In this document: positions 1-64,000 of the stretch, piece by piece
Position numbering within the stretch: the stretch's first letter is position 1
Layout: each line of letters begins with the position of its first letter
Virus record (IMG/VR): IMGVR_UViG_3300026521_000226
Coordinates: 7,778 to 71,777 of that record
DNA from: a virus
DNA: 64,000 nt
Direction: 5' to 3' (one strand)
Position numbers and translations under genes: made by a program
Notes under the pieces: model-generated
Told to the model about the DNA's origin: nothing
Databases searched by the model: none
The model's input: only the letters and a program-made list of their open reading frames with translations

Positions 1-283
1 ATCAATAATTAAAAAACATAATGAATGGACATCAACACTTGGTACTTATTCAGGAAGAATAGAGGCATTTAGAGTTGCTTGTAATTTGTTTATTGATTCA
101 ACTGATGATTTAGATAAAATAAAACAATTGTATGAAGAGGCTAAAAAATTTGATGCCTCAACAACTGACAAAGATATAATTGATTTATTTGAAAAATTTG
201 GATATGATAAAATAGTTATTCAAGATGTGAATAAAAAAGGTATTTTAAATAAATTAAAGATATTTTTACTTGGAGGTAAATAA
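1..283 (+). CDS. Hypothetical protein, 5'-truncated by the window edge
   Basis: The frame of ORF 86..283 is open back to base 2, so the TTG at 86 is probably not the true start. Confidence 0.6.
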   Translation, partial: SIIKKHNEWTSTLGTYSGRIEAFRVACNLFIDSTDDLDKIKQLYEEAKKFDASTTDKDIIDLFEKFGYDKIVIQDVNKKGILNKLKIFLLGGK

Positions 284-1137
284 TGAGTTTGAAATCAAGT
301 TATGAAGGACTGATATATAATCTTAATAGCAAGATTATCTCATTTGGTTCTTTTGAGAGAGACGGATCTTTTCCATATGTGTACAATAATGAGCAATCAG
401 CAATAATTCTTGAAGATATTGATTCTGATTTTGTAGTCTCAACAAATAACAATATACAGTCGTACAAATCTGTTAATTATAAAGGGAAAACATATACAAT
501 ACCTATAGTTAAGAACCAAATAGAATACACAACACTGGATACTATAGCAAAAAATAATGATGCAAAAATATCATTAATATATGTTAGTGAAATGTACAAA
601 GTTATTAATCCAGATATAGATGAAAATGGAATGATGGTTGTTGGATATAAATACGATCAACAGGACGATTCGTTTAAGTTTAAAACAATTGGTGTCAGAG
701 CAACATTTGGAGTATCTGGATCTCAGTATGGAATGTTTGTTTGGGCAGAAGCATTACAGTATGATCAAGATGATGATGGTAATACAACAATAGACTCACT
801 TGTATCTACGGATAAAACTTTCATACCTTATGATTATTCTGTAGAAAATTTAACAATTATGAGTACTTTTGAGTATAATTCCGATACAGATAAATTATAT
901 ATGGAATATAAGTCAGTTGAAAAAGATCAAGATGGAAATAGACTGATAAATTTTGATTATGAGTTGAACTGTGATGACGATAATGCTGCTTTTGATCCAA
1001 GTTTGATAAATATGTGCATAACTATGCCAGAATTAAATCAAACAATTGAATATAGTTTATTTCATATAAAAACATTTGGAGACAAGTTAAATCTTGATGC
1101 ATTAGAGCATCAATCAAACATATTGATAACACTTTAA
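283..1137 (+). CDS. Putative virion structural protein (acidic)
   Basis: 284 aa, GGAGG SD, in the late operon; no recognisable motif. Confidence 0.55.
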   Translation: MSLKSSYEGLIYNLNSKIISFGSFERDGSFPYVYNNEQSAIILEDIDSDFVVSTNNNIQSYKSVNYKGKTYTIPIVKNQIEYTTLDTIAKNNDAKISLIYVSEMYKVINPDIDENGMMVVGYKYDQQDDSFKFKTIGVRATFGVSGSQYGMFVWAEALQYDQDDDGNTTIDSLVSTDKTFIPYDYSVENLTIMSTFEYNSDTDKLYMEYKSVEKDQDGNRLINFDYELNCDDDNAAFDPSLINMCITMPELNQTIEYSLFHIKTFGDKLNLDALEHQSNILITL

Positions 1138-1147
1138 GGAGAAAAAT

Positions 1148-1534
1148 ATGGCTTATGATATGGGACAAGTTTCGAGTGCTTTTGACACATTGTCAAATAA
1201 AGTTCTTGGCGAATTGGAGACTCAATTTAACAAAGGAAGAATAAAAGGTACAGATTATTCTGCTGCATACACAAATCTTATGAATACTATATTACAATTA
1301 GCTATGGATGCACCTTTAAAAGAAAAACAATCAAATCAATACGATAATGATGCAAGACTAAAAGAAAGACAAATCCAAGGTTTTGATGATAAAATAAGAT
1401 CTGATTTATTTAAAACACAAATGGATAGCTGGTCTATGATGTTTGCATCAGGTATGCTTGAAGAAAAACCAGATATTATCACAAATGATGAAACAAGTGT
1501 GTTATACCAAGATATAAAGAACACACTAAGATGA
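1148..1534 (+). CDS. N4 gp54-like virion protein (short form)
   Basis: ELETQFNKGRIKGTDYSAAY resembles the gp54-family N-terminal GRIxGxxY motif; close to a gp53-like gene. Confidence 0.6.
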   Translation: MAYDMGQVSSAFDTLSNKVLGELETQFNKGRIKGTDYSAAYTNLMNTILQLAMDAPLKEKQSNQYDNDARLKERQIQGFDDKIRSDLFKTQMDSWSMMFASGMLEEKPDIITNDETSVLYQDIKNTLR

Positions 1535-34624: not shown

Positions 34625-34725
34625 GCTTATTCTCACGAATTACTTTGTAGTTTATTATGCTTTACGGCTTTCCAGCAATTAAAAAGGTTTGCTTATAATA
34701 TCACTATTATAAGGGGCTAAAATTA

Positions 34726-50350: not shown

Positions 50351-50467
50351 AGTAATCCTTTTTAATTATTTTTTGAGAGTATATCTCTCATTGAAGAACC
50401 AAAGAGTATTTTGGATAGAAGAGTATTAGTATATTCTCCTTGGTTCTTAAATGAAAGATAGAAGAGA

Positions 50468-50839: not shown

Positions 50840-50937
50840 ATTGGCTCCTTAATTATGATATCACACCAACGTCTTGGTGTCATAAAAACAATTAATCCTG
50901 GTAAAGGATAGTTAAGAACATCTATAATGCTCTCTGT

Positions 50938-50970
50938 AAAAGGCACCGAATAGAGCGAAGCGTCGGTGCC
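50938..50970 (-). terminator. GC-rich hairpin with U-run (probable terminator)
   Basis: GGCACCGA-N13-TCGGTGCC-TTTT on the minus strand. Confidence 0.55.
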
Positions 50971-51338
50971 GTTGCTAACACGGCGACAATGATAACAAAT
51001 GCGATAGACATAAAACGGCGATAGAAACGTATAAACAATAAATAAATATAAACAAGTATTAAAAGATTAGATAAGAATCATCGACGATAAACATATATTA
51101 TCGTAAAAGCATTATCGTAGAAGAGACTCGTCTTGCCGATAAGGTAAAAGTATATATCAAAAAAAGGCAGCTTCCTGATTCAACAGCAAAGAATGTTATT
51201 TGGTTCTTAACTTTGGTTCTAAAATTTTAAGTCTCCCACACTGGAAATCTGCATCTCAACATATAATTGATAGCACTATCTCCTTATATACATCTACCTT
51301 AATAGATTTATATAAAGAGATACAAGAGGAAACAAGGA

Positions 51339-54197
51339 TTACCCTATAAATAATCCTCCTTTTATATCCTCTGGTTTGATGTCCCCTTTATGAAGCTCAT
51401 TAACCATCATCTCCACAAATAGATCTACTTCTTGTTCAGTAGTCCATAATGAAGTTGATTTGTAAAGAGCCTTAATATATCCTTTAAGGAACTCTTTTCC
51501 ATTTTTAACAACTTTTCCAAGTGCTGATTTGTAAGAGTTCCAGAACATATCAATATCTTCAGGAGACACCATAAATGCATCATGGATTGGAATCATTGAT
51601 GCAAAGCTACTCTCAACCATATATTGATTGATTGCAGTTCTTAGCACATATGAATCTAATCCATGTGAATAAGCAGCAATATGTCTAACACCAAAATATT
51701 CACTGCTTACTCTTTTCATGAAGAACTCAACTTTTCTACCTGTTACAGTAGTTTTTATATTTTGAATATCTTCATGACCTGTTTGAGTAACACCTGTTAC
51801 TGCTGCTATCATACCATCAGACGCAGCATATGTAAATACTGCTTTGTTGATATGTTTAGTCATCTTAGTGAAGAAATCTCTAAGAGCAGCAGCTTCAGGC
51901 ATTAACTCTTTAAATTTAGCAGTCCAAGAATCCCATCTTGGTTCTGAAACTTCAATTATTTCTTTGTCAAGACCGATAGATTCAAGTAATTTTCTACCAA
52001 TCTTAACAAATCTAACTCTTCCAGAACCATATTGAAATGGAGTGTATGGTGCTTTTCCTGTTTTTCTAACACCAATTTCTTGGTTGATAGATAAACATTG
52101 ATTATCATCAATATTTACACCATTTACACTCCATTTCATTCCTTGACCCATAGCAGTATAAATATCATATGGTTTATCTTGTGTAGCAAAATCTACATTA
52201 AGAGAAGACCATTTCATACCACTTTTAATACCAAGTGAACATACTTGCATTGCAGTACCTGAAGCTTGTTGATCAATCTCCACTAAAATATTAGTAGGTT
52301 GACCTTTAATAGCTTTCCACATACTATGTTTGTGAATTGCTATTAATATTTTAAGCTCAAGCTCTTCTTTTTGGTTCTCCCAAATTGAATGTTGTTGAGC
52401 TTTTGTAATAGCTTCTTTTTGAAGTTGTTTAATTTTAAATTCAACTTCATTTAATTCTTTCTCGTAATCAGAGATAATATTACCTAATATCTCTACTGAT
52501 TTTTGAGAAAGAACTCTTGGTTCTGCACTACCAAACAGATGATTTCTAAATCCTGTTTGTAATGCAAGATATGCTCCTCCCTTAGCATATACTCTCAAGT
52601 TATCTGGTCCAAACTTGAATTGAGTAAAGAAGTATCCTTGTTTTTCAAAGATTTCGTTTACTCTTCTAATATCCTCTAAAGCATTTGCATGTGCTTTTTG
52701 AGCATCTTGAAGAGTAACTCTTACTTCTTTACATTCTTTATCAAGATATACTAATTCTCCTGTTGATTTAAGAACAGGATTATTAGCATGAGAATGGAAC
52801 TCAGTATGTTTAAGAACCATATCTCTAATTTCTCTTGATTCAGCTAAACCATCAACAAAAGAGTATTTAGTTTGGTTTAGATTATGTAAGAAAATCTTAC
52901 CACCAATATTTAATGATGGTTTGAATTTCCACATAGATCCTTGCCAAACTCTTCTGTTTTCAGGATCAAGGTCTATTGTTTTACCTTCACTATCAACCTT
53001 AATTAATTTAACAGGTTTTTCAGTGAAGGCACTTCTTTTTTCAATAGTAAAGAAGCTTTCTAATTTACCTTTAAATGCTGGATGTTTAACAAATTCATTA
53101 ACAAATGATTTGTTTAAACTACTAATATTAATAGTTTTAACTCCAATATTCTTAGTATTAGTAAAGATAATAGAACCTTTATCCTTACCATCTAATCCAT
53201 ACCATCTTACTTGTTTAAATAATTCAAACAAAGTAAGACCAGCATCAATTAGATTTTCCATATGAGCTTTATCAGTCCAAACTGATGGATTATTTGGTAC
53301 TGAATAAGCCCCTATAAAATAACTCATAAATTCACTTCTTAGTGAAATTTCTTGAGCTTCTTCTTTTTCAAGAAGAATGGAAATAACAAAAGTGAATAAT
53401 TCAGCAATATCATCTCTAATATTTAAAGATTGAATATATTTTGCTGATTTATTTTGTTTTACAGGTACAGCAATTTTATCAATTACTGCACCTTTAACAA
53501 TTTCTTTAAATCTAAATGAACCATCAATAAATGCATCAAATGTTTGAAGCACTGTTGGTTCTAACTTATTAGATACAAAGTCTAATACTTTTGTATCTTC
53601 ATTTAAGTCTTGAACACCAATTAGTGCTTTAACAAACACATCAGCATCTACACTATCAAGTTCTTTAAATGACTTGATAGAACAAGCTTTTAAGAAGTCT
53701 TTTGCTGATTTACTTCTTAAATCTTTAGAAACTCTTGATTTTACAAGTTCTATTCTACTTGTATTTTCAAGAGTCTCTTTAATTTGTTCTTCTTTATTTT
53801 TATCTTCATCTTCAGAAGCAGCTACACCAGCTATAAATGCTGCTGCAAATATAGCTTTAGCATTTTCAGCTACTTCCCTTTTTGAAGATTTTGGAGCTTC
53901 AATTGAAACTCCTTTAGTAGGAATCATATCTCCTACTAATTTTAATAATCTGCTACCATTGATAGCAGATTGAGCAGACATTTCTGCTCTTTTTGCTGCT
54001 GCTGCAGCCATTTTTGCCGCAATAGCAGCTTTTCTTGCTGCTTTTCTTTCAGCAGCTGATGCTCTAAGAGCATCTTTTAATTTTTCTGCTAAAGGAGCAG
54101 ATATTTTAGCTCCTTTAATTTCTTTTACTTCTTTTACTCTTTTAGGAGCAAATGCTCCTAAAAATCTTATTCCATTTTTATTTACTAATTTTCTCAT
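51339..54197 (-). CDS. Single-subunit T7-type DNA-dependent RNA polymerase
   Basis: DNLRVY, motif A VEIDQQASG, motif B RKTGKAPYTPFQYGS, HGLDS, motif C IHDAF, hydrophobic C-terminus LFIG. Confidence 0.88.
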   Translation of the reverse strand: MRKLVNKNGIRFLGAFAPKRVKEVKEIKGAKISAPLAEKLKDALRASAAERKAARKAAIAAKMAAAAAKRAEMSAQSAINGSRLLKLVGDMIPTKGVSIEAPKSSKREVAENAKAIFAAAFIAGVAASEDEDKNKEEQIKETLENTSRIELVKSRVSKDLRSKSAKDFLKACSIKSFKELDSVDADVFVKALIGVQDLNEDTKVLDFVSNKLEPTVLQTFDAFIDGSFRFKEIVKGAVIDKIAVPVKQNKSAKYIQSLNIRDDIAELFTFVISILLEKEEAQEISLRSEFMSYFIGAYSVPNNPSVWTDKAHMENLIDAGLTLFELFKQVRWYGLDGKDKGSIIFTNTKNIGVKTINISSLNKSFVNEFVKHPAFKGKLESFFTIEKRSAFTEKPVKLIKVDSEGKTIDLDPENRRVWQGSMWKFKPSLNIGGKIFLHNLNQTKYSFVDGLAESREIRDMVLKHTEFHSHANNPVLKSTGELVYLDKECKEVRVTLQDAQKAHANALEDIRRVNEIFEKQGYFFTQFKFGPDNLRVYAKGGAYLALQTGFRNHLFGSAEPRVLSQKSVEILGNIISDYEKELNEVEFKIKQLQKEAITKAQQHSIWENQKEELELKILIAIHKHSMWKAIKGQPTNILVEIDQQASGTAMQVCSLGIKSGMKWSSLNVDFATQDKPYDIYTAMGQGMKWSVNGVNIDDNQCLSINQEIGVRKTGKAPYTPFQYGSGRVRFVKIGRKLLESIGLDKEIIEVSEPRWDSWTAKFKELMPEAAALRDFFTKMTKHINKAVFTYAASDGMIAAVTGVTQTGHEDIQNIKTTVTGRKVEFFMKRVSSEYFGVRHIAAYSHGLDSYVLRTAINQYMVESSFASMIPIHDAFMVSPEDIDMFWNSYKSALGKVVKNGKEFLKGYIKALYKSTSLWTTEQEVDLFVEMMVNELHKGDIKPEDIKGGLFIG

Positions 54198-54369
54198 AAT
54201 CTATCCTTTATAAGAAATTTAAACCAAACACATCATTTGGTTCTATAAATGTTCAACTAATACTGCTTTTCACTTTGAGAAGGATAGAAAAGCATAAACA
54301 TCCTTATAATTTATAACTACAGACATCAGATCATAAGCAGTTTAATGACTTACTTAGGTCAGATTGATT

Positions 54370-55083
54370 TTAGAAGATTAAGTCTTCAAGACTATCTTGG
54401 ATCTCGAATTTAAAATCTTCATCATATTCTTCATCAATTATTGATTTAAAATATGAAATTTTAAATTCAAAATCAGGATCAAAATAGTCTTCCCAATAAA
54501 CAGTTCCAAAATCAGTATCAGTGAATTCATTATAAAAATATGAATTAAACACATTTTTATATTCTTCATTTAATACTCTTCTTGGTTCTAATTGGAATTC
54601 AGAAAGAATAGACTCAAATGAAAAATTGAATGTTGAAATCATTAACCATAGAAGTTGGAAAATGAATAACATTTGAAAATCATCTGATAAACAAATGAAT
54701 TTTTCAATCTTTTCACCTCTGAATTCCATTTTCATTGGTAAAGACCATAATACTTTGAAACCAGACTTCTCAGCCATTTTAGCTAAGTCTTCTGGTACCA
54801 TAAGTATCCAATCACCTTCTTCTTTAAGTTCTTTAATCATATTAACACCAGATCTTAATGATTTAGGCGCAAAATGACTTGGAACTTTGAATCCAAGATA
54901 GTCATTGTAGAAGAGTGTTCCGTCTTCTGTTACTCTTTGGTTTGTATGGAATAAACCGTGAGAGATGTATGAGTAACGAGAGATAACTGAATTAGTTCTA
55001 CGTCTACTCATAGCCATCTTATAGTCTTCATAAGACGACCACAACTCTTCTACAAGTTCCTTAAATAAGGTTTTTGTTACCAT
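54370..55083 (-). CDS. Early hypothetical protein with acidic C-terminus
   Basis: 237 aa, AAGGAG SD. Confidence 0.65.
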   Translation of the reverse strand: MVTKTLFKELVEELWSSYEDYKMAMSRRRTNSVISRYSYISHGLFHTNQRVTEDGTLFYNDYLGFKVPSHFAPKSLRSGVNMIKELKEEGDWILMVPEDLAKMAEKSGFKVLWSLPMKMEFRGEKIEKFICLSDDFQMLFIFQLLWLMISTFNFSFESILSEFQLEPRRVLNEEYKNVFNSYFYNEFTDTDFGTVYWEDYFDPDFEFKISYFKSIIDEEYDEDFKFEIQDSLEDLIF

Positions 55084-56230
55084 GACTTAATCTCCTTTAT
55101 AAAAATTTACACCAATAATTACAGCTATATAAGGTGCATTCAACATAGACACCTGATATGGGTACTAGGCTCATCACACCTGTTCCACATACCGAGTAAT
55201 CTATATTCAGCTGTACCACAACTGCCTATCCCTTAGGTTCTTGTCTATGCTATTGATGGCAGCATGAGGAACACTTAGGTACTTTAGTTAAGAGTATGAG
55301 TGAGAACCTTAGGTACTCGTGTGATTGAGTGCTGAAATTAGAAAGGTCTCTCTCTTGATAGTTCTTGTCTAAAGAATTTTAGGCAGTATATTCAAGGTAT
55401 AGAGCCTTAGGCACTGAAATGATAGTACTAAGGATATACCTTAAATAAGTAGTTAGGTAAGGCACTATTGCCTTATATATACACACCTTGATGTACTTAT
55501 ATAAAGCAATTAGAAAAAGAAAGATTAAGACTTTTTAGGTCTTCCTCTACTTTTTCTTTGTTGTTCCTCCTCAACTGGAGAAAGGAAGTTTTCTACACTT
55601 GCTGCTATTGCAGCTGGATCAGCAGTCAATCCATAGCTGCTTAAAGCAGCCTTGGTACCGTTATAGGTACCTTTTAAAATGTTAATAGCATTCATAATGA
55701 ATGCCTCAACATCTGCGATGATGTCACTCATCGCACCTCTAAAGGTACTAATGTACCCTTTAATTTTAGGCATGATGTCAGATATCATGCCGATAACCTC
55801 AGAAGAGGCTTGTACAATTAATGTACCTGCCTCTAAAATTATTTTAAATGCTTCAACTGAAGCACTTATTGTTGTTTTAATTGTTAATGATAATGTTGTA
55901 TTTGCCATAATAAACTCCTTATACAGCAATTTGAGTACCCAGTTTAAAGTTAGTACTCTACCACCTATCCATCCTGTTAGGAGTCTAGCTCAACCGACAG
56001 TTCATAGGTTCTAATTTTTTCCCTACTACAGCCCTATAGGGGGGGCAATCACATAAAATCACACGACTATATGTAATCTACTACCCTTAAACTTAATTAT
56101 GAAAAATCTATAAAAGCCGAATTTCTAAAATTGTAGTACCTAAGTGTTATTTATTATATAGAGATGATTTTAAAATTGAAGTAAAAATTAAGCATTAAAG
56201 TACCTAAGTTATGGGAATATGTAGTAATTA
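55084..56230. other. Divergence zone and predicted physical genome termini
   Basis: Early (-) and late (+) arms diverge here, as in a circularised N4-type map; clustered CTTAGGTWCT-type repeats; CCCTATAGGGGGGG at 56032-56045. Confidence 0.55.
55525..55908 (-). CDS. First early protein; amphipathic helices and C-terminal AT-hook
   Basis: AAGGAG SD before ATG 55908; ends KSRGRPKKS. Confidence 0.65.
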   Translation of the reverse strand: MANTTLSLTIKTTISASVEAFKIILEAGTLIVQASSEVIGMISDIMPKIKGYISTFRGAMSDIIADVEAFIMNAINILKGTYNGTKAALSSYGLTADPAAIAASVENFLSPVEEEQQRKSRGRPKKS

Positions 56231-56240
56231 TATTGACATT

Positions 56241-56291
56241 TTGTTAGTCCTGTGGACTAATTCTATTAGTCCTGTGTGAGAGGACTAACAA
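56241..56291. repeat. Paired TTAGTCC/GGACTAA inverted repeats
   Basis: 56244-56260 (3-nt spacer) and 56266-56288, just downstream of TTGACA at 56233. Confidence 0.85.
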
Positions 56292-56317
56292 ATTAAATTA
56301 TTTGAAAGGATTTTTGT

Positions 56318-56905
56318 ATGAATTTTATTTCGAAGTATGATATTATATCAAAACAGGTCATAAATGACAAGACTGGTGAGATAGAAGTTGAACATTTTAA
56401 ACAAGTAAAAGAGACTAAAAAGATCAAAGGAGGATTCAGAATGGTATATGCAGCATTTGATATAGCAGTTAGCAGAATAATTAAATCACAAATAGACTAT
56501 TTGGTACTTATTTATATAAGAGATTTATTTACATATAAACAAGTTGAAGTTCATCTACCTGGTTCTGAAATTGCAAAATTGTTTGAAATAAGCAGAAGTA
56601 AAGTTAATGAACTTATAAATAGATCAGTGAATGAAGAGCTCTTATTTAGGGTAAAAAGAGGAGTTTATAGACTTAATCCATACATGTATTTACCATTTAG
56701 AGCCAATGGAGAAGAACTTCAAAAAGAATGGAGTGAATTAACTAAAGATATTAAAAGTAGATATAGATGGCTTAACGAACAAGTTAAAAATAGTATATGT
56801 GATGACATGATAAAAATGGAATATATAAAAGAAATAAAAGAGTTGGAAAAACAATTAAACAAAGAAACTATTGAAAATATAAAAAACAACATGAAAACAT
56901 ATTGA
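56318..56905 (+). CDS. RepL-like winged-helix DNA-binding protein
   Basis: KTGEI, YLVLIYI, EIAKLFEISRSKVNELI, RGVYRLNPY. Confidence 0.7.
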   Translation: MNFISKYDIISKQVINDKTGEIEVEHFKQVKETKKIKGGFRMVYAAFDIAVSRIIKSQIDYLVLIYIRDLFTYKQVEVHLPGSEIAKLFEISRSKVNELINRSVNEELLFRVKRGVYRLNPYMYLPFRANGEELQKEWSELTKDIKSRYRWLNEQVKNSICDDMIKMEYIKEIKELEKQLNKETIENIKNNMKTY

Positions 56906-57005
56906 TTATCTACGAGTAACATATGGGGTTTTTTGTAATTTTTTGGTATACTTCTTTTATGAGTACATCTATTTGGTACTTAAATTAGAAATACAAAGGA
57001 AATAC

Positions 57006-57530
57006 ATGAATATGGATACAGAAAAAATTAATATTAATTACTTAAAACAAACAGTAAGTGATGAAGAAGATATGCTTATAGGATATTCTATAAAAGAAGG
57101 ATATGATGATAATTTTGGAATAGGCATAGTGCTATATATGTTGCATATAGATATAAATAAAGGACACTGCTTAGAAGAACTTGCAAAAAATAATGATATG
57201 TGTATAAGAATTCATAAATTTAGAATTGATAAAAAATCATTTAAAAAAGATGAAATAAAAAGATATTTAATATTTAAAAAAGTAAATTATTATTCTTTTT
57301 TAGAAAATAATAAATTATTTTTTAATACACTTGAAAATGTTGCAAAAGTAGATAATAATTGTTCAAGTGTTAAATGTGTCTTTGATTTAGTTGAAAAAAT
57401 AGATGATGAATATAATTTTGATATGATTAGTCAATCTATACCAGCACTTGGTTCTTTAAGATTTGAGGGAATTCATTGTGATATATATGACGATGATATA
57501 GTTGATTTATTAACAAATGAAAACGAATAA
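57006..57530 (+). CDS. Hypothetical protein
   Basis: AAGGA SD before ATG 57006. Confidence 0.55.
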   Translation: MNMDTEKININYLKQTVSDEEDMLIGYSIKEGYDDNFGIGIVLYMLHIDINKGHCLEELAKNNDMCIRIHKFRIDKKSFKKDEIKRYLIFKKVNYYSFLENNKLFFNTLENVAKVDNNCSSVKCVFDLVEKIDDEYNFDMISQSIPALGSLRFEGIHCDIYDDDIVDLLTNENE

Positions 57531-58203
57531 AGAAAAATATATGAAACAAGAACAACAAAATAAACTTGACACATTCATTGTGTCTTTACCAAGGAATAGA
57601 AGAAAATTAAGTGATGAAGCACTTAGTGAATTAAAGTATATTATTGAAAAAGAACCAGAATTATTTGAAGATGTGATATCTTATACAAAGGTTATTTCTG
57701 AAGGTAAGTATAGTATAGTTGAATATGTTAATGCTGTTAGGTATGTTACATATCAAATGATGGGATACACAAATAGGCAATCATATTTGAAAATATTTAC
57801 AGATAAAGCAAACATTGATAGAGATACGATTGATAAATTTGTGAATAAATACAATAAAAGCAAGTTGGTACTTGAGTTACAAAAAATAGCTACAGTACCA
57901 TTATATTTAACTCATCATCACTTATTAAATAAAGCAGTTGCAAAACAAGCAGAATTGTTAGATGCTAAATCAGAGATGGTTCAACACCTTGCAGCAAAAG
58001 AATTATGTAACCTTTTAGCACCACCAGAAGAGAACCACATGTCTATAGATGTGAATATCAAAAAAGATACAACAGTTCAAGATCTGGAAAGCACATTATT
58101 TAAATTAGCTGAAAAGCAGGTAGAACTTATTGGTTCTGGAAAGTCAACAAATAAAGATATAGCAGAGATGAATATAATAGATGCCGTTGTTGAAGAAAAT
58201 TGA
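57517..58203 (+). CDS. N4 gp69-like protein (probable small terminase)
   Basis: GKYSIVEYVNAVRYVTYQMMG, YNKSKLV, AKSEMVQHLAA..LAPPE; upstream of terL. Confidence 0.78.
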   Translation: MKTNKEKYMKQEQQNKLDTFIVSLPRNRRKLSDEALSELKYIIEKEPELFEDVISYTKVISEGKYSIVEYVNAVRYVTYQMMGYTNRQSYLKIFTDKANIDRDTIDKFVNKYNKSKLVLELQKIATVPLYLTHHHLLNKAVAKQAELLDAKSEMVQHLAAKELCNLLAPPEENHMSIDVNIKKDTTVQDLESTLFKLAEKQVELIGSGKSTNKDIAEMNIIDAVVEEN

Positions 58204-58228
58204 CATATTCATTATTAAATGATACAAT
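58200..58228 (+). promoter_or_regulatory. Near-consensus sigma70 promoter
   Basis: TTGACA-N17-TACAAT with extended TG. Confidence 0.8.
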
Positions 58229-58233
58229 TCGAG

Positions 58234-58417
58234 TGTGGAGTATGTTGTATATTTTTTATATACACAAAATATTTTTTATTACAAGCAATCTATTTCCGTC
58301 GCTCCTGCTTTAAGTGATTTTTTAAAAGTTTTTTGATTTCATATAACAATTCCTTTATTTTAAAAGTTATTTTTTTTTATTCAAAAACATACTCCACAAC
58401 TTTTTCTTTTTCTTTTC
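58234..58417 (+). ncRNA. Candidate small RNA with paired ends
   Basis: Starts at the predicted +1; 13-bp TGTGGAGTATGTT/AACATACTCCACA stem, then a U-rich tail; no ORF on +. Confidence 0.5.
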
Positions 58418-58473
58418 TGCTTTACTTACAAACATATTTTTTGTTACAATAAACACAAAAAAAGGATTTTGTT

Positions 58474-60051
58474 TTGTCAAAAAAAGTAACTGTAGACAAT
58501 CTACTTTCAGAAATAAAATATTCATTTGATAGTTACGTACCAAGTAAAGAGGCTGTAGCTTTTGTTAACTTTGTTAAACTTATAGGTGTTGAAGACAATA
58601 AAACACCTGTTGTACATTTTAAAATGTTAGATAACATATTTAGTAAATATAAAATGCATGCAATAATGTGTCATAGGGGTATGGCAAAATCTACATTACT
58701 TGGAGAATATCTTCATTTTTGGATAGCAGTATTTAATAATATACCTAATTTTGGATTTGTTAATTTTAGTTTATATGTTGCTGATAGTGCCGAAGGTGGT
58801 GCAAAAACATTAAGAAAGAACATGGAATTTAAATATAATCATAGCGAATTTTTACAACAACAATTACCTAAAGTAAAATTTACTGATGGAGAACTTTGGT
58901 TCCAAAATAAAAGTGGTGGTGAAACAATAATAAGATTGTTTGGTGGTCAGCAAAATATAAGAGGTCAGAGAGCATTAGGTAAGAGGCCTCAGCTTGCAAT
59001 TATGGATGATTTGTTGTCAGACCAAGACGCTAAATCAGACACAGTACTTGAAAATATTGAAAATAATATAAACAAGGCAATATCTAAAGCATTAGATCCA
59101 ACTCATCAAAAACAGATACTTATTGGTACACCATTCCACGAAGGAGATCCATTGTATAGAAGAATACAAAATAGTCAATGGAATGCCTCTGTGTATCCGA
59201 TATGTGAGAAATTTCCATGTAAAAAAAGTGAATTTAAGGGTTCATGGGAAGAAAGATTTAGTTATGATTATGTAAGAGGCATGTATTTGGAGGCTAAAGA
59301 GAATGGGTCTTTGGATGGATTTTATCAAGAATTAATGTTACAGGTTAAGTCAGATGATCAAAGATTGGTTCTTGACGATGATATAAAATTTATAGAGCCA
59401 GCTAAAAAATATAACACTTATTACATAACAACAGATTTTGCTACAAGTGAAAAACAAGCAGCAGACTTTAGTGTTATATCTGTTTGGGGAATAACTGCAA
59501 AAGGGCATAAAGTGCTTATTGATGGTAGAGCTGAAAGATGTCTTATGGATAAGAACATGGATGATCTTTTTTGGTTCTGTAAAAAATATAATCCACTTCA
59601 GGTTGGGATAGAGGTTACTGGGCAGCAAGGTGGGTTTATCCAATGGGTAAAGAACCAAATGGTTGAAAAAAATATATTTTTTAACTTAAAAGAGATAAGA
59701 CCAAATATACGTAAAATGGAAAGATTCCAAAGAATACTTCCTGAATTCAAAATGGGGTTATTATATTTTTCAAATAAATTGGAAGAATTATTTAAGGATG
59801 AAATTGAAAGTGAATTAAAGGGTGCAACAGTTAAAAAATTCACATCAAGGCATGATGATTTTATTGATACAATATCAATGCTGTATGAATTAGACGGAAT
59901 ATACGCTGGATTTTCAGGTGATGTAAATAAAGATGAATTTAATAATCAAGATTACTTAAAATTAGATTATAAAAAACAAGAAAAAATTACTGACATTTTT
60001 TCTGAAATTGAGTATAATACATCTAAAGCTAATGATAGTTTTTATGTTTAA
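58474..60051 (+). CDS. terL: Terminase large subunit (N4 gp68-like)
   Basis: TTG start; CHRGMAKST, RPQLAIMDD, IGTPF, YITTDFATSEKQAADFS, HDDFIDTISM. TGTTACAAT -10 at 58442-58450. Confidence 0.93.
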   Translation: MSKKVTVDNLLSEIKYSFDSYVPSKEAVAFVNFVKLIGVEDNKTPVVHFKMLDNIFSKYKMHAIMCHRGMAKSTLLGEYLHFWIAVFNNIPNFGFVNFSLYVADSAEGGAKTLRKNMEFKYNHSEFLQQQLPKVKFTDGELWFQNKSGGETIIRLFGGQQNIRGQRALGKRPQLAIMDDLLSDQDAKSDTVLENIENNINKAISKALDPTHQKQILIGTPFHEGDPLYRRIQNSQWNASVYPICEKFPCKKSEFKGSWEERFSYDYVRGMYLEAKENGSLDGFYQELMLQVKSDDQRLVLDDDIKFIEPAKKYNTYYITTDFATSEKQAADFSVISVWGITAKGHKVLIDGRAERCLMDKNMDDLFWFCKKYNPLQVGIEVTGQQGGFIQWVKNQMVEKNIFFNLKEIRPNIRKMERFQRILPEFKMGLLYFSNKLEELFKDEIESELKGATVKKFTSRHDDFIDTISMLYELDGIYAGFSGDVNKDEFNNQDYLKLDYKKQEKITDIFSEIEYNTSKANDSFYV

Positions 60052-60065
60052 AAAAGGTTAACTAA

Positions 60066-60863
60066 ATGAACATTTCTAAGTATAAAAAATACATCAGAGA
60101 CATGAATGTTTCAGATGATGAATTGGAAGAAATAGTTTCAGATGTTATAGAAGATATAGCTATGGATACTAAGATATTTAAAAATACAATTGGTTTTAAA
60201 TTAGATGGTTGTGTAAGAGAATATGATATTGAAGCAATATACGAATTATATTCAAATCTTGATGATCAAGTTATAAACATAGAGTATACTTCAAATTCAA
60301 GTACAGAAAGTACACTTAAGTTAATAGATATGATAACTATTGACGATGGTGACAACAAAACAACATGTGAAGATAAAAATAATGACGACAGTGTTGATGA
60401 AGACATTACATATTCATCAAGTAAAAGTAAATTTATATCTGCAAATGATTTGTTTGTTATATTTAATGATACAATTGAAGCTGAGTCAAGAAAATCAAAA
60501 ACATTGATAAAGTCGATAGAAAATGAATATTTTGAGAGGTATAATAATTTTGTTTATAAATCAAAGCATGAATACTTATCTGATTTATATGGTTCCGAAG
60601 ATTATTCCATTGATGTTTATGTTAATTGTTCAATAGTGCCATCTGCTGAACAAATAAATGATGATCAAGAAAGAATGTTAAGGACTGCATTAATAAATGG
60701 ACTTAAGTATTTTTCAAGTGATATGTACTTAAACACTTCAAATGAGCAAGTATCAAATTTACTGTACCAAAGATATTACTCTTCTAAAAAACAATTACTA
60801 TACAATAATCCACAATTTGTTAGTCCTAAGTTAGATTTTAGAAATAGTGGTTGGAATCAATAA
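60066..60863 (+). CDS. Head-tail adaptor (N4 gp67-like)
   Basis: Position after terL; ALINGLKYF..LLYQRY..RNSGW C-terminus. Confidence 0.55.
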   Translation: MNISKYKKYIRDMNVSDDELEEIVSDVIEDIAMDTKIFKNTIGFKLDGCVREYDIEAIYELYSNLDDQVINIEYTSNSSTESTLKLIDMITIDDGDNKTTCEDKNNDDSVDEDITYSSSKSKFISANDLFVIFNDTIEAESRKSKTLIKSIENEYFERYNNFVYKSKHEYLSDLYGSEDYSIDVYVNCSIVPSAEQINDDQERMLRTALINGLKYFSSDMYLNTSNEQVSNLLYQRYYSSKKQLLYNNPQFVSPKLDFRNSGWNQ

Positions 60864-60890
60864 TGTTAAACAATAAGGAGGTTAAATGTT

Positions 60891-61832
60891 ATGGCAAGTA
60901 CTTCGTTAATATATGATAGACTAAAAACATATATAAATATGAGAATTGACACTATCCATGATTCATTGAAAGATTTATTTGATGATTATAAGGTGAAAGA
61001 TGTTGGTGACAATATAGACAATGTTAAAGCTGCTGGAGACAATAAAGATAATATTGATACAGTTGCTGATAATATAGATCCAATAAAAGATGTGTCTAAT
61101 GATATCGATAGTGTTAAAAATGTGTCAGATAAATTAGATGATGTTAGAAATTATGCTTCAACATATATTGGAGCATCAGATGATGCACCAGATTCAAGAA
61201 ATGATGGGTATGATTTACAAGATGGAGATTTATACTTTAATTCTGACGAGAATAGAATGAAAGTGTATAATGCTGATGATGAAGAATGGATCGATATCGG
61301 TACCACAGTTAAAGGTATTAAAAAAACAGCATCGTTTACAGGTGATGGAGATACAAAAGAATTTGATGTTGATGGTGGATATGATGCTGACAATGGTATT
61401 GTATTCTTAAATGGTTCTGTAGTTACTGAAGATGTTGATATCAGTGATGGTAGTAAGGTTAAATTTGATGATGCACCTGCTGATGATGATGAAATCGATT
61501 GTATTTTCTTTGGTTCTTTTGAGACATCAGACATTTATGAAGTGGTTTGTAATTATTATGTAGATGTATCAGATGACAAAGATGTTGATATTGGAAATAC
61601 ATATCTATGTGATTCAAGTGATGATGGGTTTACATTGACTTTACCTGATAGTGCCAATAAAGGACAAAAAATAATTATTGTTGATGTTAAAAAAACATTT
61701 GATGATAACAATGTTATTCTTGATAGGAATGGAAATAATATCGATGGTAAGGATGAAGATTATACATGTGATGTTATTAGAAAATATGAGATCTTATGTG
61801 TAGATGATGATCATAATTGGAGGGTATTATAA
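60891..61832 (+). CDS. Tail fibre / virion appendage protein
   Basis: V..NI..V heptad-like repeats, DGDLYFN, VFLNG, FTLTLPDSA..GQKIIIVD modules; very Asp-rich. Confidence 0.7.
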   Translation: MASTSLIYDRLKTYINMRIDTIHDSLKDLFDDYKVKDVGDNIDNVKAAGDNKDNIDTVADNIDPIKDVSNDIDSVKNVSDKLDDVRNYASTYIGASDDAPDSRNDGYDLQDGDLYFNSDENRMKVYNADDEEWIDIGTTVKGIKKTASFTGDGDTKEFDVDGGYDADNGIVFLNGSVVTEDVDISDGSKVKFDDAPADDDEIDCIFFGSFETSDIYEVVCNYYVDVSDDKDVDIGNTYLCDSSDDGFTLTLPDSANKGQKIIIVDVKKTFDDNNVILDRNGNNIDGKDEDYTCDVIRKYEILCVDDDHNWRVL

Positions 61833-63589
61833 TGAGCAAATATAGTGATAATATACTTAAACAAATACAAGGTGTTGATGGCATTGGTTCTGGAATTGAC
61901 ACAGATTTAGTTAGAGGAGAAGTGTTAAGTAAGTATGGTTTTAAAAACAAAATTATCAATGGAGATATGAGTGTAACCCAAAGAGGCAGAATGTTCTCTT
62001 TTGAAGATGATGGGGATTACACAGCAGATAGATGGTATACAGAAATTCAAGATGGTAAAGAATATGTAAGGCAAGAGATTGTATGGTCAAAAGATGAAGG
62101 TTCTTGGAAAGATGAAACTGACCCTTTTGATGATGGTAGTCAACATAACCTTTGGCAATTTGATGGAGATGCTACAGATACAAATGGTAATAATGATGGT
62201 ACACTTAATGGAGATGCTTCATTTGTAGATGATTATATTCCTGGTATAGGTGCTGTTAAAGTGCTTACATTAGATGGAGATGGAGATTATGTGTCTACTG
62301 ATTTTAAAATAGATGATAGTGATAAATACACACTTAGTTCTTGGTTTAAGACTGATACTAAACAAAATAGTGCTTGTATCTTAGGTTCAAGAGATAGTGA
62401 TGGAACATCAGAATATATAAGAGGAACAATAGAATTGGATAGTGATATATTACAATTATCTATGGGTGATGATAGTGATGTATCTTATCATAAAGTAAAT
62501 ATACCTAAGTATTATAATAATACTCTTCACAACATTGTCATAGCTATTGATGGTTATAATCAAACAGTATATTTTGATAGCAAAAAAATAGGAACTTACA
62601 CATTAGATGTTAGTGCAGGAACTAGTAGTGATTATACATATAGTATAGGTCGTTTAGGTGAAGAAGATGGTAATTACTTCAAAGGTCAAATAGCAAGAAC
62701 AAGAGTATTTTTAGGAAAAGCACTAACTCAAGACGAAGTGTATAAATTATATGTTGAAGATGAAAAATACATTCAACAAAAACAATTAAGAAGTGTAATC
62801 ACAAAAGATGATACTATTTCTAAATATCAACCATTCACATATAGATTTGAGGGTAAGGATTTAATTGACTACAAAGATGAAAAAGTAACTATTAGTTTCA
62901 ATGTTAGAAGTAATCAAACAGGTGATTTTAGTTTATCACTTATTAACCAATCAACAGATGATAAGCAAAGTTATATAACAAAATTTAACTATGGAAACGA
63001 TGATAATACATTCCAAAAAGTAAATGTAACAGTACCTTTATCTGATTTTGATAAATTCATTAGAGATAATGAAGAGTTAGGATTTGAATTAGTTATAGCA
63101 GGTATTGGAGATGAAACTGATACAGAAGGTATTCAAGATGGTGAGTATTTCTATTTGAAAGATACTGTTAAATTATCTGAAAATGATTGGATTGCTGTTA
63201 CTGATGCTCAATTAGAAGTAGGTGATATTGTTACTGAATTTGAAAGAAAATCTTATGAAGCAAATGTAGTTGAAAATAATGCTCCTTTTAATTTAGGTAT
63301 AGGTGCAAGTGGTTATAAATGGGTTGATGAAACTGCTAATAGAGATGCAGGTGTTACTTATACAAACACAACAGAAAAAGCTATACATGTGTCTGTATGG
63401 ACAGATGCTGGTAATGATAACTCAGCAATGTCAATATCATCATATGTTGATGATGTTAAAATCCAGTATCAAAAAATCGCTAATGCCGATGATAACGATT
63501 ATATTATGTGTTCATTTATAGTATCAAACGGTTCTACATACAAAATAGATGGTTATATAAATATAGTATCTTGGTTTGAATTAAAATAA
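61832..63589 (+). CDS. Tail fibre / receptor-binding protein with LamG-like domain
   Basis: GSGIDTDLV, KNKIINGDM..QRG, YTADRW, WQFDGDATD..LTLDGDGDYV..FKGQI..ALTQDEV, QLEVGDIVTEFE, GVTYTNTT..WFELK. Confidence 0.8.
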   Translation: MSKYSDNILKQIQGVDGIGSGIDTDLVRGEVLSKYGFKNKIINGDMSVTQRGRMFSFEDDGDYTADRWYTEIQDGKEYVRQEIVWSKDEGSWKDETDPFDDGSQHNLWQFDGDATDTNGNNDGTLNGDASFVDDYIPGIGAVKVLTLDGDGDYVSTDFKIDDSDKYTLSSWFKTDTKQNSACILGSRDSDGTSEYIRGTIELDSDILQLSMGDDSDVSYHKVNIPKYYNNTLHNIVIAIDGYNQTVYFDSKKIGTYTLDVSAGTSSDYTYSIGRLGEEDGNYFKGQIARTRVFLGKALTQDEVYKLYVEDEKYIQQKQLRSVITKDDTISKYQPFTYRFEGKDLIDYKDEKVTISFNVRSNQTGDFSLSLINQSTDDKQSYITKFNYGNDDNTFQKVNVTVPLSDFDKFIRDNEELGFELVIAGIGDETDTEGIQDGEYFYLKDTVKLSENDWIAVTDAQLEVGDIVTEFERKSYEANVVENNAPFNLGIGASGYKWVDETANRDAGVTYTNTTEKAIHVSVWTDAGNDNSAMSISSYVDDVKIQYQKIANADDNDYIMCSFIVSNGSTYKIDGYINIVSWFELK

Positions 63590-63600
63590 AGGAGATGTAA

Positions 63601-64000
63601 ATGAGGTATTTCAAAGATAGTAATAACAATATATTTGCTTATGAAGATAATATTAATAGTAAGTATATTAAACAAAATTTAGAAGAAATTACAGAAACAC
63701 AATATAAGTCATTTAGACTTTTTGGTGTTTTTGATAAAAATGAAGATGAAGTAAATGATGAAGAATTAAAAGTAAGAATTGAAACAGGTAGAACCAAACT
63801 TAAACAACAAATAAAAAGTGAATTTACTAAAAGATATGAAAAATCAGTGATACATTCAGACCAAATTGATAATGATATTGATGCTGGTGTTGAACCTTTG
63901 AGAAACATCAATGGACTTATTGATGTGTTAGCAGATGATGATAAAATTGATTATAGACTTGCTAACAATGATTTCAAAGAAGTTTCAAAAGATGATTTAA
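63601..64000 (+). CDS. Tail fibre assembly-like protein, 3'-truncated
   Basis: AAGGAG SD, MRYFKDSNNNIFAYED..., frame open to the window end. Confidence 0.65.
   Translation, partial: MRYFKDSNNNIFAYEDNINSKYIKQNLEEITETQYKSFRLFGVFDKNEDEVNDEELKVRIETGRTKLKQQIKSEFTKRYEKSVIHSDQIDNDIDAGVEPLRNINGLIDVLADDDKIDYRLANNDFKEVSKDDL

What the first reader, a model, noticed from the sequence alone, without database searches (positions are those of the whole stretch)
39..63797. Genome-wide octamer TTGGTWCT / AGWACCAA, about 130 copies
Seen: about 130 exact copies by hand count (e.g. 39, 344, 512, 1628, 1881, 1962, 4568, 9601, 20452, 20475, 26799, 26818, 43800, 43830, 47073, 47088, 51200, 51213, 63790), about one per 500 bp. 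They occur in both orientations in both transcription arms, in different codon frames and between genes. A rough base-composition expectation at about 27% GC is about 4. I saw no copy in the intron/HNH insert, though other gaps of about 2 kb also exist. Inference: a DNA-level signal under selection, such as a site for a phage or host DNA-binding protein, a packaging/translocation signal, a Chi-like protective site, an uptake-type sequence or a modification site.
Basis: partly seen in the sequence, partly recalled or inferred. Interest (0 to 1): 0.8.

Follow-up and report, generated by a model that had tools for sequence, protein, structure and literature searches.

The report
Phage-wide DNA word, probable primase signal
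This phage has written the eight-letter DNA word TTGGTWCT about every 500 bases into both strands of its genome, its relatives including the classic E. coli phage N4 carry sister words, and the word most likely tells the phage's own DNA primase where to start, though its reader is unproven.

Summary
TTGGTWCT occurs 136 times in the window (4.5 expected) and 149 times in the 71.8-kb phage genome. It lies in all six frames and between genes. It survives a synonymous-codon shuffle (36 +/- 4).

The phage is a distant N4-like podovirus. No PolA or PolB match was found. It keeps the N4 gp43-type archaeo-eukaryotic primase.

Relatives carry sister words with the core TGGWWC: TTGGTAC, TTGGATC, GTGGTTC, CTGGTTC. 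Cultured N4-like phages do too: E. coli phage N4 has 110 CTGGTTC (8.5 expected); Vibrio JA-1 and Achromobacter Axy12 have TTGGTTC.

The word is not a host signal. E. coli DNA is not enriched, and N4 carries E. coli Chi only 6 times. None of 151 Campylobacterales genomes is enriched.

The only biochemical precedent I found is the NrS-1 primase-polymerase, which starts DNA synthesis at 5'-TTTGGTTA-3' (PMC8718748).

Best reading (about 0.5): lineage-specific start words for the phage primase.

Four literature searches found no report of the words; a fifth found none of enriched primase sites. This scan has noted similar octamers in other phages.

The parts
39..63797 (.). 136 dispersed copies of TTGGTWCT / AGWACCAA (core TGGTWC), about one per 470 bp, on both strands, in genes and between them
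   Evidence: coordinates of every copy; 136 vs 4.47 expected; core, frames, shuffles.
36470..38587 (-). 705-aa N4 gp43-type DNA primase, the candidate reader of the word. The N-terminal half has a P-loop-like G-x-G-K; the C-terminal part is an archaeo-eukaryotic primase (AEP) domain plus a PriCT_1 helix bundle.
   Evidence: phrog_2135 'DNA primase' E 1.6e-56. Pfam PriCT_1, 22.3 bits against a cut-off of 21.1. Orthologues in 4 of 5 related genomes. Same gene order (primase, then Sak4-like) as in N4 and VBP47.
36473..37180 (-). AEP catalytic domain plus C-terminal helix bundle (236 aa) of the primase
   Evidence: Invariant D-x-D, H and D (D499, D501, H526, D572 of the full protein). AlphaFold2 model pLDDT 92.5. 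Foldseek: RepB' primase E 5.6e-4, S-2L PrimPol E 6e-4. VIA-align: Z 7.9 to S-2L PrimPol over 117 residues, rmsd 3.3; further AEP enzymes at Z 5-6.7.
35629..36288 (-). AAA_24 (Sak4-like) gene directly downstream of the primase; a synteny marker of the N4 replication module
   Evidence: Pfam AAA_24 E 4.7e-10. N4 gp44 and VBP47 'Sak4-like' follow their primases.
50440..61891 (+). Run in which 22 of 23 copies of the octamer lie on the + strand, across the point of divergent transcription near 56 kb
   Evidence: list; longest same-strand run of the 7-letter core is 16, permutation p 0.003.
33836..34561 (-). HNH endonuclease insert splitting the ribonucleotide reductase gene; it carries no copy of the word (the gap is not statistically unusual)
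   Evidence: Pfam HNH_3 E 8.2e-11. No site between 33266 and 35338. Gap test.

Best explanation
The octamer is this phage's dialect of a recognition word, core TGGWWC, shared by N4-like phages. Most likely it is read on single-stranded template DNA by the phage's own gp43-type archaeo-eukaryotic primase, whose C-terminal helix bundle (PriCT_1) would bind the word and start a primer next to it.

A G+C-containing 7-8-letter word would occur by chance only about once per 16 kb in this 28% G+C genome. Selection has therefore written it into both strands about once per 0.7-1 kb per strand, roughly the size of an Okazaki fragment.

In this clade no PolA or PolB match was found, so the same enzyme may also be the replicase, as in phage NrS-1.

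Shown: the enrichment, its independence of coding, the family of dialects, the absence from hosts, and the presence and fold of the primase.

For: (1) Real, selected, DNA-level signal. Sister words in 11 other genomes also survive synonymous shuffling, z 5-23.

(2) Phage-lineage property, not a host property. Sister words:
- TTGGTAC 177 copies, TTGGATC 157, GTGGTTC 135, CTGGTTC 68 in four related whole contigs
- GTTGGTTC 60 in G159
- N4 (E. coli) CTGGTTC 110 vs 8.5
- Vibrio JA-1 TTGGTTC 120 vs 9.7, Achromobacter Axy12 CTTGGTTC 66 vs 3.0, Stenotrophomonas Piffle CTTGGTTC 29 vs 2.7, Erwinia S6 ATGGTTC 51 vs 9.8

Hosts range from 35 to 55% G+C phage genomes, yet the core is the same.

(3) Precedent: the NrS-1 primase-polymerase starts DNA synthesis de novo at the template word 5'-TTTGGTTA-3', one base upstream, and the helix-bundle domain binds the recognition site (PMC8718748, passages read). 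It shares TTGGTT with the window's (T)TTGGTTCT, which has 47 copies with the extra T.

(4) The candidate reader is present. A gp43-type AEP primase with PriCT_1 is in the window and in 4 of 5 related genomes, three of them at least 95% complete by CheckV's estimate; the window's own contig is rated 84%.

(5) Association. In 16 of 17 loci from contigs with a close primase (E < 1e-80 to profile A3), the top-ranked 7-mer is a family word; the 17th ranks third. In 0 of 8 loci from contigs with only a distant primase match is this so. The association holds with or without PolA: 4 of the 17 have PolA.

(6) Density is similar in the five related whole genomes, 2.05-3.63 per kb on both strands. On one strand the spacing is more even than random in G153, G154 and G155 (CV 0.64-0.78, p <= 0.003).

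(7) A strand bias independent of transcription points to a directional DNA process. With the primase gene on top, the word is commoner on the bottom strand in 8 of 9 genomes, alike in + and - genes (N4 41/69, JA-1 40/80, Axy12 35/64, Piffle 67/102, this phage 74/96).

(8) No PolA or PolB Pfam match in this genome or 4 relatives, two of them complete with terminal repeats.
Against: - No experiment links gp43 to any word.
- Every word-bearing genome has the N4/SU10-type portal.
- The gp43-type domain is not shown to be a close relative of the NrS-1 enzyme. phmmer and a profile found nothing in the PDB. Foldseek ranks NrS-1 N300 tenth at E 0.1.
- NrS-1 itself has only 1 copy of TTTGGTTA (1.8 expected), and its enzyme also primes at GTG. 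A recognised word need not be enriched.
- Some N4-like phages with the primase show no word (VBP47, pVa5).
- In the window's own genome the spacing is not more regular than chance (CV 0.91 and 1.14).
- Orientation skew is modest (84/65). Its change of sign along the genome is significant only in G000 (p 0.036) and G153 (p 0.012), and not in G154, G155, G156 or N4 (p 0.54).
- The similarity to TTTGGTTA was noticed after I had recalled several other known words, so it is partly post hoc.
Confidence: 0.5

Rival explanations
1. The word is read by another conserved N4-type protein rather than the primase. Examples: a control word for the phage's own exonuclease/recombination module (a phage-private Chi), a loading site for helicase, SSB or Sak4, or a guide for the packaging or ejection machinery, which also work directionally.
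For: All word-bearing genomes share the whole N4 core gene set, so the association does not single out the primase. The window encodes a PD-(D/E)XK nuclease, a UvrD-like helicase, a Sak4-like ATPase and a Gp157-like protein. A genome-wide bottom-strand bias without a sign change fits one-directional packaging or ejection as well as it fits replication.
Against: Short-word sequence specificity is not known to me for any of these protein families (recalled, not tested), whereas it is documented for AEP primases. A translocase guide such as KOPS is far more skewed than the 55-67% seen here (the KOPS skew is recalled). No protein of the window was tested for binding.
Confidence: 0.22
2. The word is a host-related signal copied by the phage: the host's Chi site (protection from RecBCD/AddAB), a DNA-uptake sequence, or a site of another host DNA protein.
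For: The core shares TGGT with E. coli Chi GCTGGTGG (Chi word recalled; its 14 vs 1.7 enrichment in E. coli DNA is seen). Both orientations would protect both ends. A few Campylobacterales genomes show about 2-fold more copies than the reversed control.
Against: N4 infects E. coli. Its word CTGGTTC is not Chi; Chi occurs only 6 times in N4 (1.6 expected); and CTGGTTC is not enriched in a 50-kb piece of E. coli K-12 (3 vs 5.3). The same core is used by phages of E. coli, Vibrio, Achromobacter, Stenotrophomonas and Erwinia. None of 151 Campylobacterales genomes exceeds 0.13 copies per kb, against 2.1 per kb in the phage. A Sulfurovum MAG holding a distant N4-type portal has 191 copies in 1.9 Mb against 140 for the control.
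Confidence: 0.05
3. The word is the target of a sequence-specific DNA modification (methylation or a bulkier base modification) that marks phage DNA as self or shields it from defence systems.
For: The word is non-palindromic and 6-8 bases long with lineage-specific flanks, like targets of type I/III or BREX-type methyltransferases (recalled). Nothing in my data excludes it.
Against: No methyltransferase or base-modification enzyme appeared among the 39 window proteins scanned against Pfam; the remaining ORFs were not scanned. A modification target gives no obvious reason for 30-fold enrichment, and the same core in phages of very different hosts argues against host enzymes.
Confidence: 0.06
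4. The word has no function for the phage. It is written in by a biased mutation or repair process (for example retained, error-prone DNA primers or biased gene conversion), as has been debated for hyper-abundant words such as cyanobacterial HIP1.
For: Enrichment alone cannot separate selection from a mutational drive. One-letter variants are also somewhat frequent (for example 47 further NTGGTWCT). HIP1 is a precedent of an unexplained hyper-abundant octamer (PMC5861425, search listing only).
Against: The word sits in all six frames at the cost of codon and amino-acid choice: 149 observed, against 36 after synonymous and 22 after codon shuffling. Its density is similar in genomes of 24.5 to 55% G+C. 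The flanking letters differ sharply between lineages while the core is kept, which is the pattern expected of a co-evolving reader.
Confidence: 0.07

Closest known systems
Template recognition word of the phage NrS-1 primase-polymerase (5'-TTTGGTTA-3'; PMC8718748, citing Zhu et al. 2017)
   Same: An 8-letter, non-palindromic word read on the template by an AEP-superfamily enzyme with a helix-bundle domain. It shares TTGGTT with the window's (T)TTGGTTCT. That phage also lacks a classical DNA polymerase.
   Different: NrS-1 has a single copy, just downstream of its primase gene, not about 150 dispersed ones. Its enzyme has the primase domain at the N-terminus, whereas here it is C-terminal. No specific sequence relationship was detected.
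Short primase recognition sites: pRN1 ORF904 5'-GTG-3'; T7 gene 4 primase 5'-GTC-3' with preferred 5'-TGGTC-3' (recalled from memory, not from a call)
   Same: Sequence-specific start of primers on single-stranded template. The T7 pentamer resembles the core TGGT(T)C.
   Different: Those sites are 3-5 letters long and frequent by chance, so no genome-wide enrichment is needed or, to my knowledge, reported. The word here is 7-8 letters and about 30-fold enriched.
Chi sites (RecBCD/AddAB)
   Same: A short asymmetric word, over-represented, acting on DNA ends and forks, with lineage-specific dialects.
   Different: Chi is a host-chromosome word read by a host enzyme. The N4 word is not E. coli Chi and is not enriched in E. 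coli DNA. Density here is about ten times that of Chi in E. coli (the figure of 1 per 4.5 kb is recalled).
DNA uptake sequences (Neisseria DUS, Haemophilus USS; recalled)
   Same: About one copy per kb, both orientations, inside genes in all frames, with dialects between lineages.
   Different: Those are host-chromosome words read by the competence machinery. Here hosts are not enriched and the carrier is a lytic-type phage.
Stoperators of cluster A mycobacteriophages
   Same: Dozens of copies of one asymmetric word spread through a phage genome and read by a phage protein.
   Different: Stoperators are 13-17 bp, number about 20-35, and are oriented with transcription. Here the word is 7-8 bp, has about 150 copies, and orientation is unrelated to transcription (71 sense, 64 antisense).

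Membership tests
Primase recognition / initiation words | A primase with a template-recognition module is encoded by the same genome | tested here: met
   gp43-type AEP primase with PriCT_1 at window 36470-38587.
Primase recognition / initiation words | Primer synthesis starts at or next to the word | not testable with these tools
   Needs an in-vitro priming assay or mapping of nascent 5' ends.
Primase recognition / initiation words | The word lies on the lagging-strand template, so orientation follows fork direction | tested here: inconclusive
   The bottom strand is favoured in 8 of 9 genomes irrespective of gene strand. A sign change along the genome is significant only in G000 (p 0.036) and G153 (p 0.012), not in G154, G155, G156 or N4. 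Fork directions are unknown.
Primase recognition / initiation words | The word co-varies with the primase | tested here: inconclusive
   16 of 17 loci with a close primase against 0 of 8 with a distant primase have a family word as top 7-mer. All are N4-type phages, so descent is not excluded.
Archaeo-eukaryotic primase superfamily (the protein at 36470-38587) | Catalytic motifs D-x-D, s-x-H and h-D, and the AEP fold | tested here: met
   Invariant D499, D501, H526 and D572 in 4 orthologues. D30, D32 and H57 of the domain are invariant in 53 sequences. The best structural matches for residues 1-138 are all AEP enzymes (S-2L PrimPol Z 7.9, LigD polymerase domain 6.7, Prim-PolC 6.5).
Chi sites | The word equals the host's Chi and is enriched in the host chromosome | tested here: not met
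   Tested on the sister word of N4, whose host is known. CTGGTTC differs from GCTGGTGG; Chi occurs 6 times in N4; CTGGTTC is 3 vs 5.3 expected in 50 kb of E. coli K-12. The window's own host is unknown. 151 Campylobacterales genomes are not enriched.
DNA uptake sequences | The host chromosome carries the word at about one per kb | tested here: not met
   At most 0.13 per kb in 151 Campylobacterales genomes; E. coli sample not enriched. Caveat: the true host of the window phage is not known.
Stoperator-type repressor sites | Orientation correlates with the direction of transcription | tested here: not met
   71 copies in sense and 64 in antisense of the genes they lie in.
KOPS-like translocase guides | Very strong orientation skew along each arm | tested here: not met
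   84 + against 65 - overall. Only one 11-kb stretch is one-sided.
Modification / restriction target | Modified base at the word in virion DNA | not testable with these tools
   No modification-aware reads are available. No methyltransferase appeared among the 39 proteins scanned against Pfam.

The most novel reading that the evidence does not exclude
N4-like phages, including the 60-year-old model phage N4, carry a private replication code. It is a 7-8-letter word saturating both strands, read by the helix bundle of their AEP primase, and it co-evolves with that primase into lineage dialects (CTGGTTC, TTGGTTC, GTGGTTC, TTGGTAC, TTGGATC and others). In lineages that have lost PolA, the same enzyme replicates the genome as a primase-polymerase that starts only on its own words. 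Priming would then be confined to phage DNA and spaced by sequence rather than by a clock.
Probability: 0.3. Interest if true: 0.88.

Novelty: new variant of a known kind. Interest (0 to 1): 0.78.

Why it matters
If the word is the primase's start signal, lagging-strand initiation in a large and widespread phage family would be hard-wired in the genome sequence. The primase domain that reads it would co-evolve with about one hundred or more sites per genome. That would be a natural system for studying how DNA-recognition specificity drifts.

It would also explain how a clade in which no classical DNA polymerase was found can replicate.

The word gives a simple sequence signature for recognising these phages and their replication module in metagenomes.

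The same kind of word is present in phage N4 (110 copies of CTGGTTC), so the idea can be tested at once in a standard E. coli laboratory system.

Tried and rejected
Coding artefact: rejected. The word lies in all six frames, and synonymous and codon shuffles give 36 and 22 against 149 observed.

Paired or composite sites: rejected. Eight pairs lie within 35 bp against 9.7 expected.

Promoter, terminator or stoperator reading: rejected, because orientation ignores transcription.

tRNA-related origin: no tRNA in the window.

Near-identical DNA relatives: none in the phage collection. A single-protein search of viral contigs found nothing; the alignment-based search worked.

Host signal: 151 Campylobacterales genomes and two MAGs that hold distant N4-type portals show no enrichment. 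The host remains unknown; the Sulfurovum MAG link (31% portal identity) is weak.

Sequence link between the window primase and solved structures: phmmer best E 0.21, profile search 0 hits. NrS-1 N300 appears only at Foldseek rank 10 (E 0.1) and rank 26, and is not among the 50 entries listed by VIA-align. I therefore claim a shared superfamily only.

Regular spacing in the window's own genome: not significant.

Origin mapping from orientation skew: the minima lie 4-10 kb from the primase gene in G000, G154 and G155. The range test is significant only for G000 and G153, so I make no origin call.

Denser words in PolA-less genomes: densities overlap, so I make no claim.

An independent lineage carrying the primase and the word without N4 structural genes: not found. 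Five of 5 checked contigs of 45-113 kb have the N4-type portal.

Literature: searches found no paper describing these words in N4-like phages. Search 107, which did not name the N4 group, found no report of over-represented primase recognition sites in phage genomes. The single hits for CTGGTTC/TGGTTC that I opened or saw listed were a cloning primer or unrelated listings. One search gave nothing on N4 fork direction. Supplementary files were not consulted. Older N4 replication papers are outside the searched library.

Full report
**1. The observation**

The pattern TTGGTWCT, read on both strands, has 136 exact copies in the window. One hundred dinucleotide-preserving shuffles gave 4.47 +/- 2.12, largest 12.

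The window is bases 7778-71777 of a single 71,777-bp virus contig with 28.1% G+C. The whole contig holds 149 copies, 84 on the + and 65 on the - strand.

The variable letter is strictly W: 96 T, 53 A, 1 C, 3 G. The strongest core is TGGTWC with a preferred T on either side (TGGTWCT 196 copies, TTGGTWC 170).

The copies lie in all six frames relative to the genes (9/49/13 sense, 12/24/28 antisense), and 14 are intergenic.

Nulls, against 149 observed:
- Shuffling synonymous codons within each gene leaves 35.9 +/- 4.2 (maximum 49 of 300).
- Shuffling whole codons leaves 22.1 +/- 2.9.
- Simulated Markov chains of order 1 to 5 give 5.5, 10.8, 12.3, 37.8 and 88.4 (maximum 119).

One result points the other way. 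With a maximal-order Markov expectation the octamer is not exceptional. This only says that its own 6- and 7-letter sub-words are already enriched.

The site-free HNH insert lies in a gap no longer than expected.

**2. What the genome is**

PHROG and Pfam scans identify:
- an SU10/N4-type portal, a major head protein and a large terminase
- a ribonucleotide reductase split by an HNH insert, and ThyX
- a PD-(D/E)XK nuclease, UvrD-like and DEAD-box helicases, and a Sak4-like ATPase
- a 952-aa protein with a weak RNA-polymerase match
- a 705-aa 'DNA primase' (phrog_2135, PriCT_1)

The portal's best named relatives are Alteromonas and other N4-like phages at 30-37% identity. So this is a distant N4-like podovirus. 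No tRNA is present. The host is unknown.

**3. Relatives carry sister words**

An alignment of portal homologues retrieved 74 IMG/VR loci. De novo word statistics showed that the nearer relatives each have their own hyper-abundant word built on the same core: GAACCAAC, AGTACCAA, TGATCCAA, AGAACCATC, TGAACCAG, GAACCACC. As TGG-words these are GTTGGTTC, TTGGTACT, TTGGATCA, GATGGTTCT, CTGGTTCA and GGTGGTTC.

| Contig | Word | Copies |
|---|---|---|
| G153 (73.5 kb) | TTGGTAC | 177 |
| G154 (61.6 kb) | TTGGATC | 157 |
| G155 (54.8 kb) | GTGGTTC | 135 |
| G156 (50.7 kb) | CTGGTTC | 68 |
| G159 (37.5 kb) | TTGGTTC | 102 |

G158 has only a weak GATGGTA (35 vs 5.1). The letter before TGG takes all four values in different lineages. 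Portal-based loci below about 40% identity mostly show nothing.

**4. Not a host word**

Two MAGs that contain distant N4-type portals (one labelled Sulfurovum) are not enriched: 191 copies against 140 for the reversed control in 1.9 Mb, and 197 against 178 in 2.7 Mb.

In 151 genomes sampled from the order of the Sulfurovum MAG, the richest has 428 copies in 3.2 Mb, or 0.13 per kb, against 2.1 per kb in the phage. Some genomes show about twice the control, which is far from a saturating signal.

The stronger argument comes from cultured relatives (section 6).

**5. The lead: a primase that reads a near-identical word**

A literature search on primase-polymerases led to PMC8718748. I read passages of it. 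[quoted passage not shown] It starts at the first base upstream. The helix-bundle domain of AEP enzymes binds the recognition site. The enzyme also uses 5'-GTG-3'.

The window's word with its preferred upstream T is TTTGGTTCT (47 copies). It shares TTGGTT with the NrS-1 word.

In the NrS-1 genome itself the 8-mer occurs once, 147 bp downstream of the primase gene. Dispersal is therefore not a property of that system.

**6. The candidate reader, and the spread of the phenomenon**

The primase:
- The 705-aa protein has orthologues in G153, G154 and G155, at 25-36% identity over the matched stretches. G156, rated 74% complete, has none.
- The alignment shows a P-loop-like N-terminal half and a C-terminal domain with invariant D-x-D, H and D.
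- An AlphaFold2 model of the last 236 residues, built on 53 sequences, has pLDDT 92.5.
- Foldseek's two significant matches are the RepB' primase and the S-2L primase-polymerase.
- VIA-align gives Z 7.9 (117 residues, rmsd 3.3) to S-2L PrimPol. AEP enzymes fill the top rows for residues 1-138. The helical tail matches nothing specific.

Polymerases: no PolA or PolB Pfam match exists in this genome or in G153-G156, two of which are complete with terminal repeats.

Spread among uncultured phages:
- Searching viral contigs with the primase domain gave 80 loci. Nearly all with at least about 32% identity have an NTGGWWC-type word as their most over-represented 7-mer.
- I checked 31 contigs for PolA and for the primase profile. 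Seventeen have a close primase (E < 1e-80). In 16 of these 17 the top 7-mer is a family word (z 12-55), and in the 17th it ranks third.
- Eight contigs have only a distant match, and in none is a family word on top (best z 6.7).
- Four of the 17 have PolA, so the word follows the primase type and not the loss of the polymerase.

Spread among cultured phages:
- The primase is the N4 gp43 family. 469 phage records match it, and the gene order primase, then Sak4-like, is the same as in N4 and VBP47.
- Cultured phages were then examined whole.

| Phage | Word | Copies vs expected |
|---|---|---|
| E. coli phage N4 | CTGGTTC | 110 (41 top, 69 bottom) vs 8.5 |
| Vibrio cholerae phage JA-1 | TTGGTTC | 120 vs 9.7 |
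| Achromobacter Axy12 | CTTGGTTC | 66 vs 3.0 |
| Stenotrophomonas Piffle | CTTGGTTC | 29 vs 2.7 |
| Erwinia S6 | ATGGTTC | 51 vs 9.8 |
| Acinetobacter XC38 | TTGGTTTA | 31 vs 3.9 |
| E. coli phage Pollock | TTGGTTTA | 32 vs 4.6 |
| Alteromonas PT11-V19 | CAGGATCA | 17 vs 0.7 |
| VBP47, pVa5 | none | - |

All tested words survive synonymous shuffling (z 5-23).

In N4, E. coli Chi occurs 6 times (1.6 expected). In a 50-kb piece of E. coli K-12, CTGGTTC occurs 3 times (5.3 expected) while Chi occurs 14 times (1.7 expected). For the one member whose host biology is known, the word is therefore neither Chi nor a host-genome word. The same core serves phages of five different host genera.

**7. Geometry**

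Density is 2.05-3.63 words per kb on both strands in the five related whole genomes. That is one per 0.5-1.1 kb per strand.

On one strand the spacing is more even than random in G153, G154 and G155 (CV 0.73, 0.78 and 0.64; p <= 0.003). This is not so in the window's genome (CV 0.91 and 1.14).

Orientation is nearly balanced. In the window there is one striking run, 22 of 23 octamers on the + strand between 50.4 and 61.9 kb, across the divergent transcription point (run test p 0.003). A cumulative-skew range test is significant for G000 (p 0.036) and G153 (p 0.012). It is not significant for G154, G155, G156 or N4.

When genomes are turned so that the primase gene is on the top strand, the word is commoner on the bottom strand in 8 of 9 genomes, equally in genes of either direction: N4 41/69, JA-1 40/80, Axy12 35/64, Piffle 67/102, S6 66/85, G000 74/96, G155 63/72, G153 86/91. 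G154 is the exception at 118/106. This points to a directional DNA process that is not transcription. Replication fits. One-way packaging or ejection fit too.

**8. Reading**

The word is a selected, phage-lineage-specific recognition signal with evolving dialects. I think the most likely reader is the gp43-type AEP primase, and the most likely function the start of primers on the lagging-strand template (confidence about 0.5).

For this reading:
- AEP primases are the only proteins of the conserved N4 core for which recognition of short template words is documented.
- One such enzyme reads a word sharing six consecutive letters with this one.
- The word type tracks the primase subfamily.
- The per-strand spacing is Okazaki-like.
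- A long G+C-containing word in an A+T-rich genome would have to be enriched to be usable.

Against it:
- No biochemical data exist for gp43.
- The association is confounded by descent. All carriers are N4-type, including five contigs of 45-113 kb.
- The NrS-1 enzyme is not a demonstrable close relative, and its own genome is not enriched.
- Some N4-like phages with the primase have no word.

Rivals are listed separately: another phage protein (0.22), a biased mutational process (0.07), modification (0.06) and a host signal (0.05).

**9. Known or new**

Four literature searches found no description of these words in N4 or its relatives. A fifth, which did not name the N4 group, found no report of enriched primase sites in phage genomes. 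The library lacks most older subscription papers, and supplements were closed.

Within this scan, 41 notes describe genome-wide octamers in other phages. Three follow-up reports proposed primase words for other lineages. These are unchecked AI notes, not evidence, and I reached the primase lead before seeing them.

Relative to print I rate this a new variant of a known kind. Sequence-specific priming is known. A genome saturated with a long, dialect-forming start word, present even in phage N4, appears not to be.

Noticed in passing
whole genome G000 and relatives G153-G156; window 36470-38587: This clade of N4-like phages has no PolA or PolB Pfam match, even in two complete genomes with terminal repeats. 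It keeps the gp43-type AEP primase, so the primase may double as the replicase (primase-polymerase). Twelve of the 14 primase-retrieved contigs checked (G179-G190) also lack PolA; G191 and G192 have it.
   Followed up: partly
L181+L182 (Escherichia phage N4, NC_008720.1): N4 has no CTGGATC at all (7.9 expected) while CTGGTTC has 110 copies. This may reflect avoidance of GATC in N4.
   Followed up: no
L091 (Nitratiruptor phage NrS-1) 17166-17440: The single TTTGGTTA of NrS-1 lies 147 bp downstream of its primase-polymerase gene, among four TGGTTA within 280 bp. This is a candidate replication origin.
   Followed up: no
L180 (Alteromonas phage PT11-V19); L067; G158 and L042: Other N4-type phages with more distant primases have different over-represented words: CAGGATCA 17 vs 0.7; ACGGTAA 13 vs 0.8; GATGGTA 35 vs 5.1 and 18 vs 2.4. 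Each primase subfamily may have its own word.
   Followed up: partly
window 50440-61891: 22 of 23 octamers point the same way across the divergent early/late transcription point near 56 kb. Just left of it (about 42-54 kb in genome coordinates) the opposite strand is favoured. A polarity switch like this could mark an origin, but the test is weak.
   Followed up: partly
window 32392-35625: The large-subunit ribonucleotide reductase gene is in two pieces (34723-35625 and 32392-33684) separated by an HNH endonuclease ORF (33836-34561).
   Followed up: no
window 51339-54197: A 952-aa single-chain protein has a weak RNA-polymerase match (phrog_2051, E 2.9e-9) where N4 has two RNAP II subunits. An earlier scan note makes the same point.
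   Followed up: no
L231-L234 (Acinetobacter phage XC38), L203-L206 (Escherichia phage Pollock): A weaker word, TTGGTTTA (31 vs 3.9; 32 vs 4.6), is enriched in these cultured N4-like phages. It is one T-shift away from the NrS-1 word TTTGGTTA.
   Followed up: no
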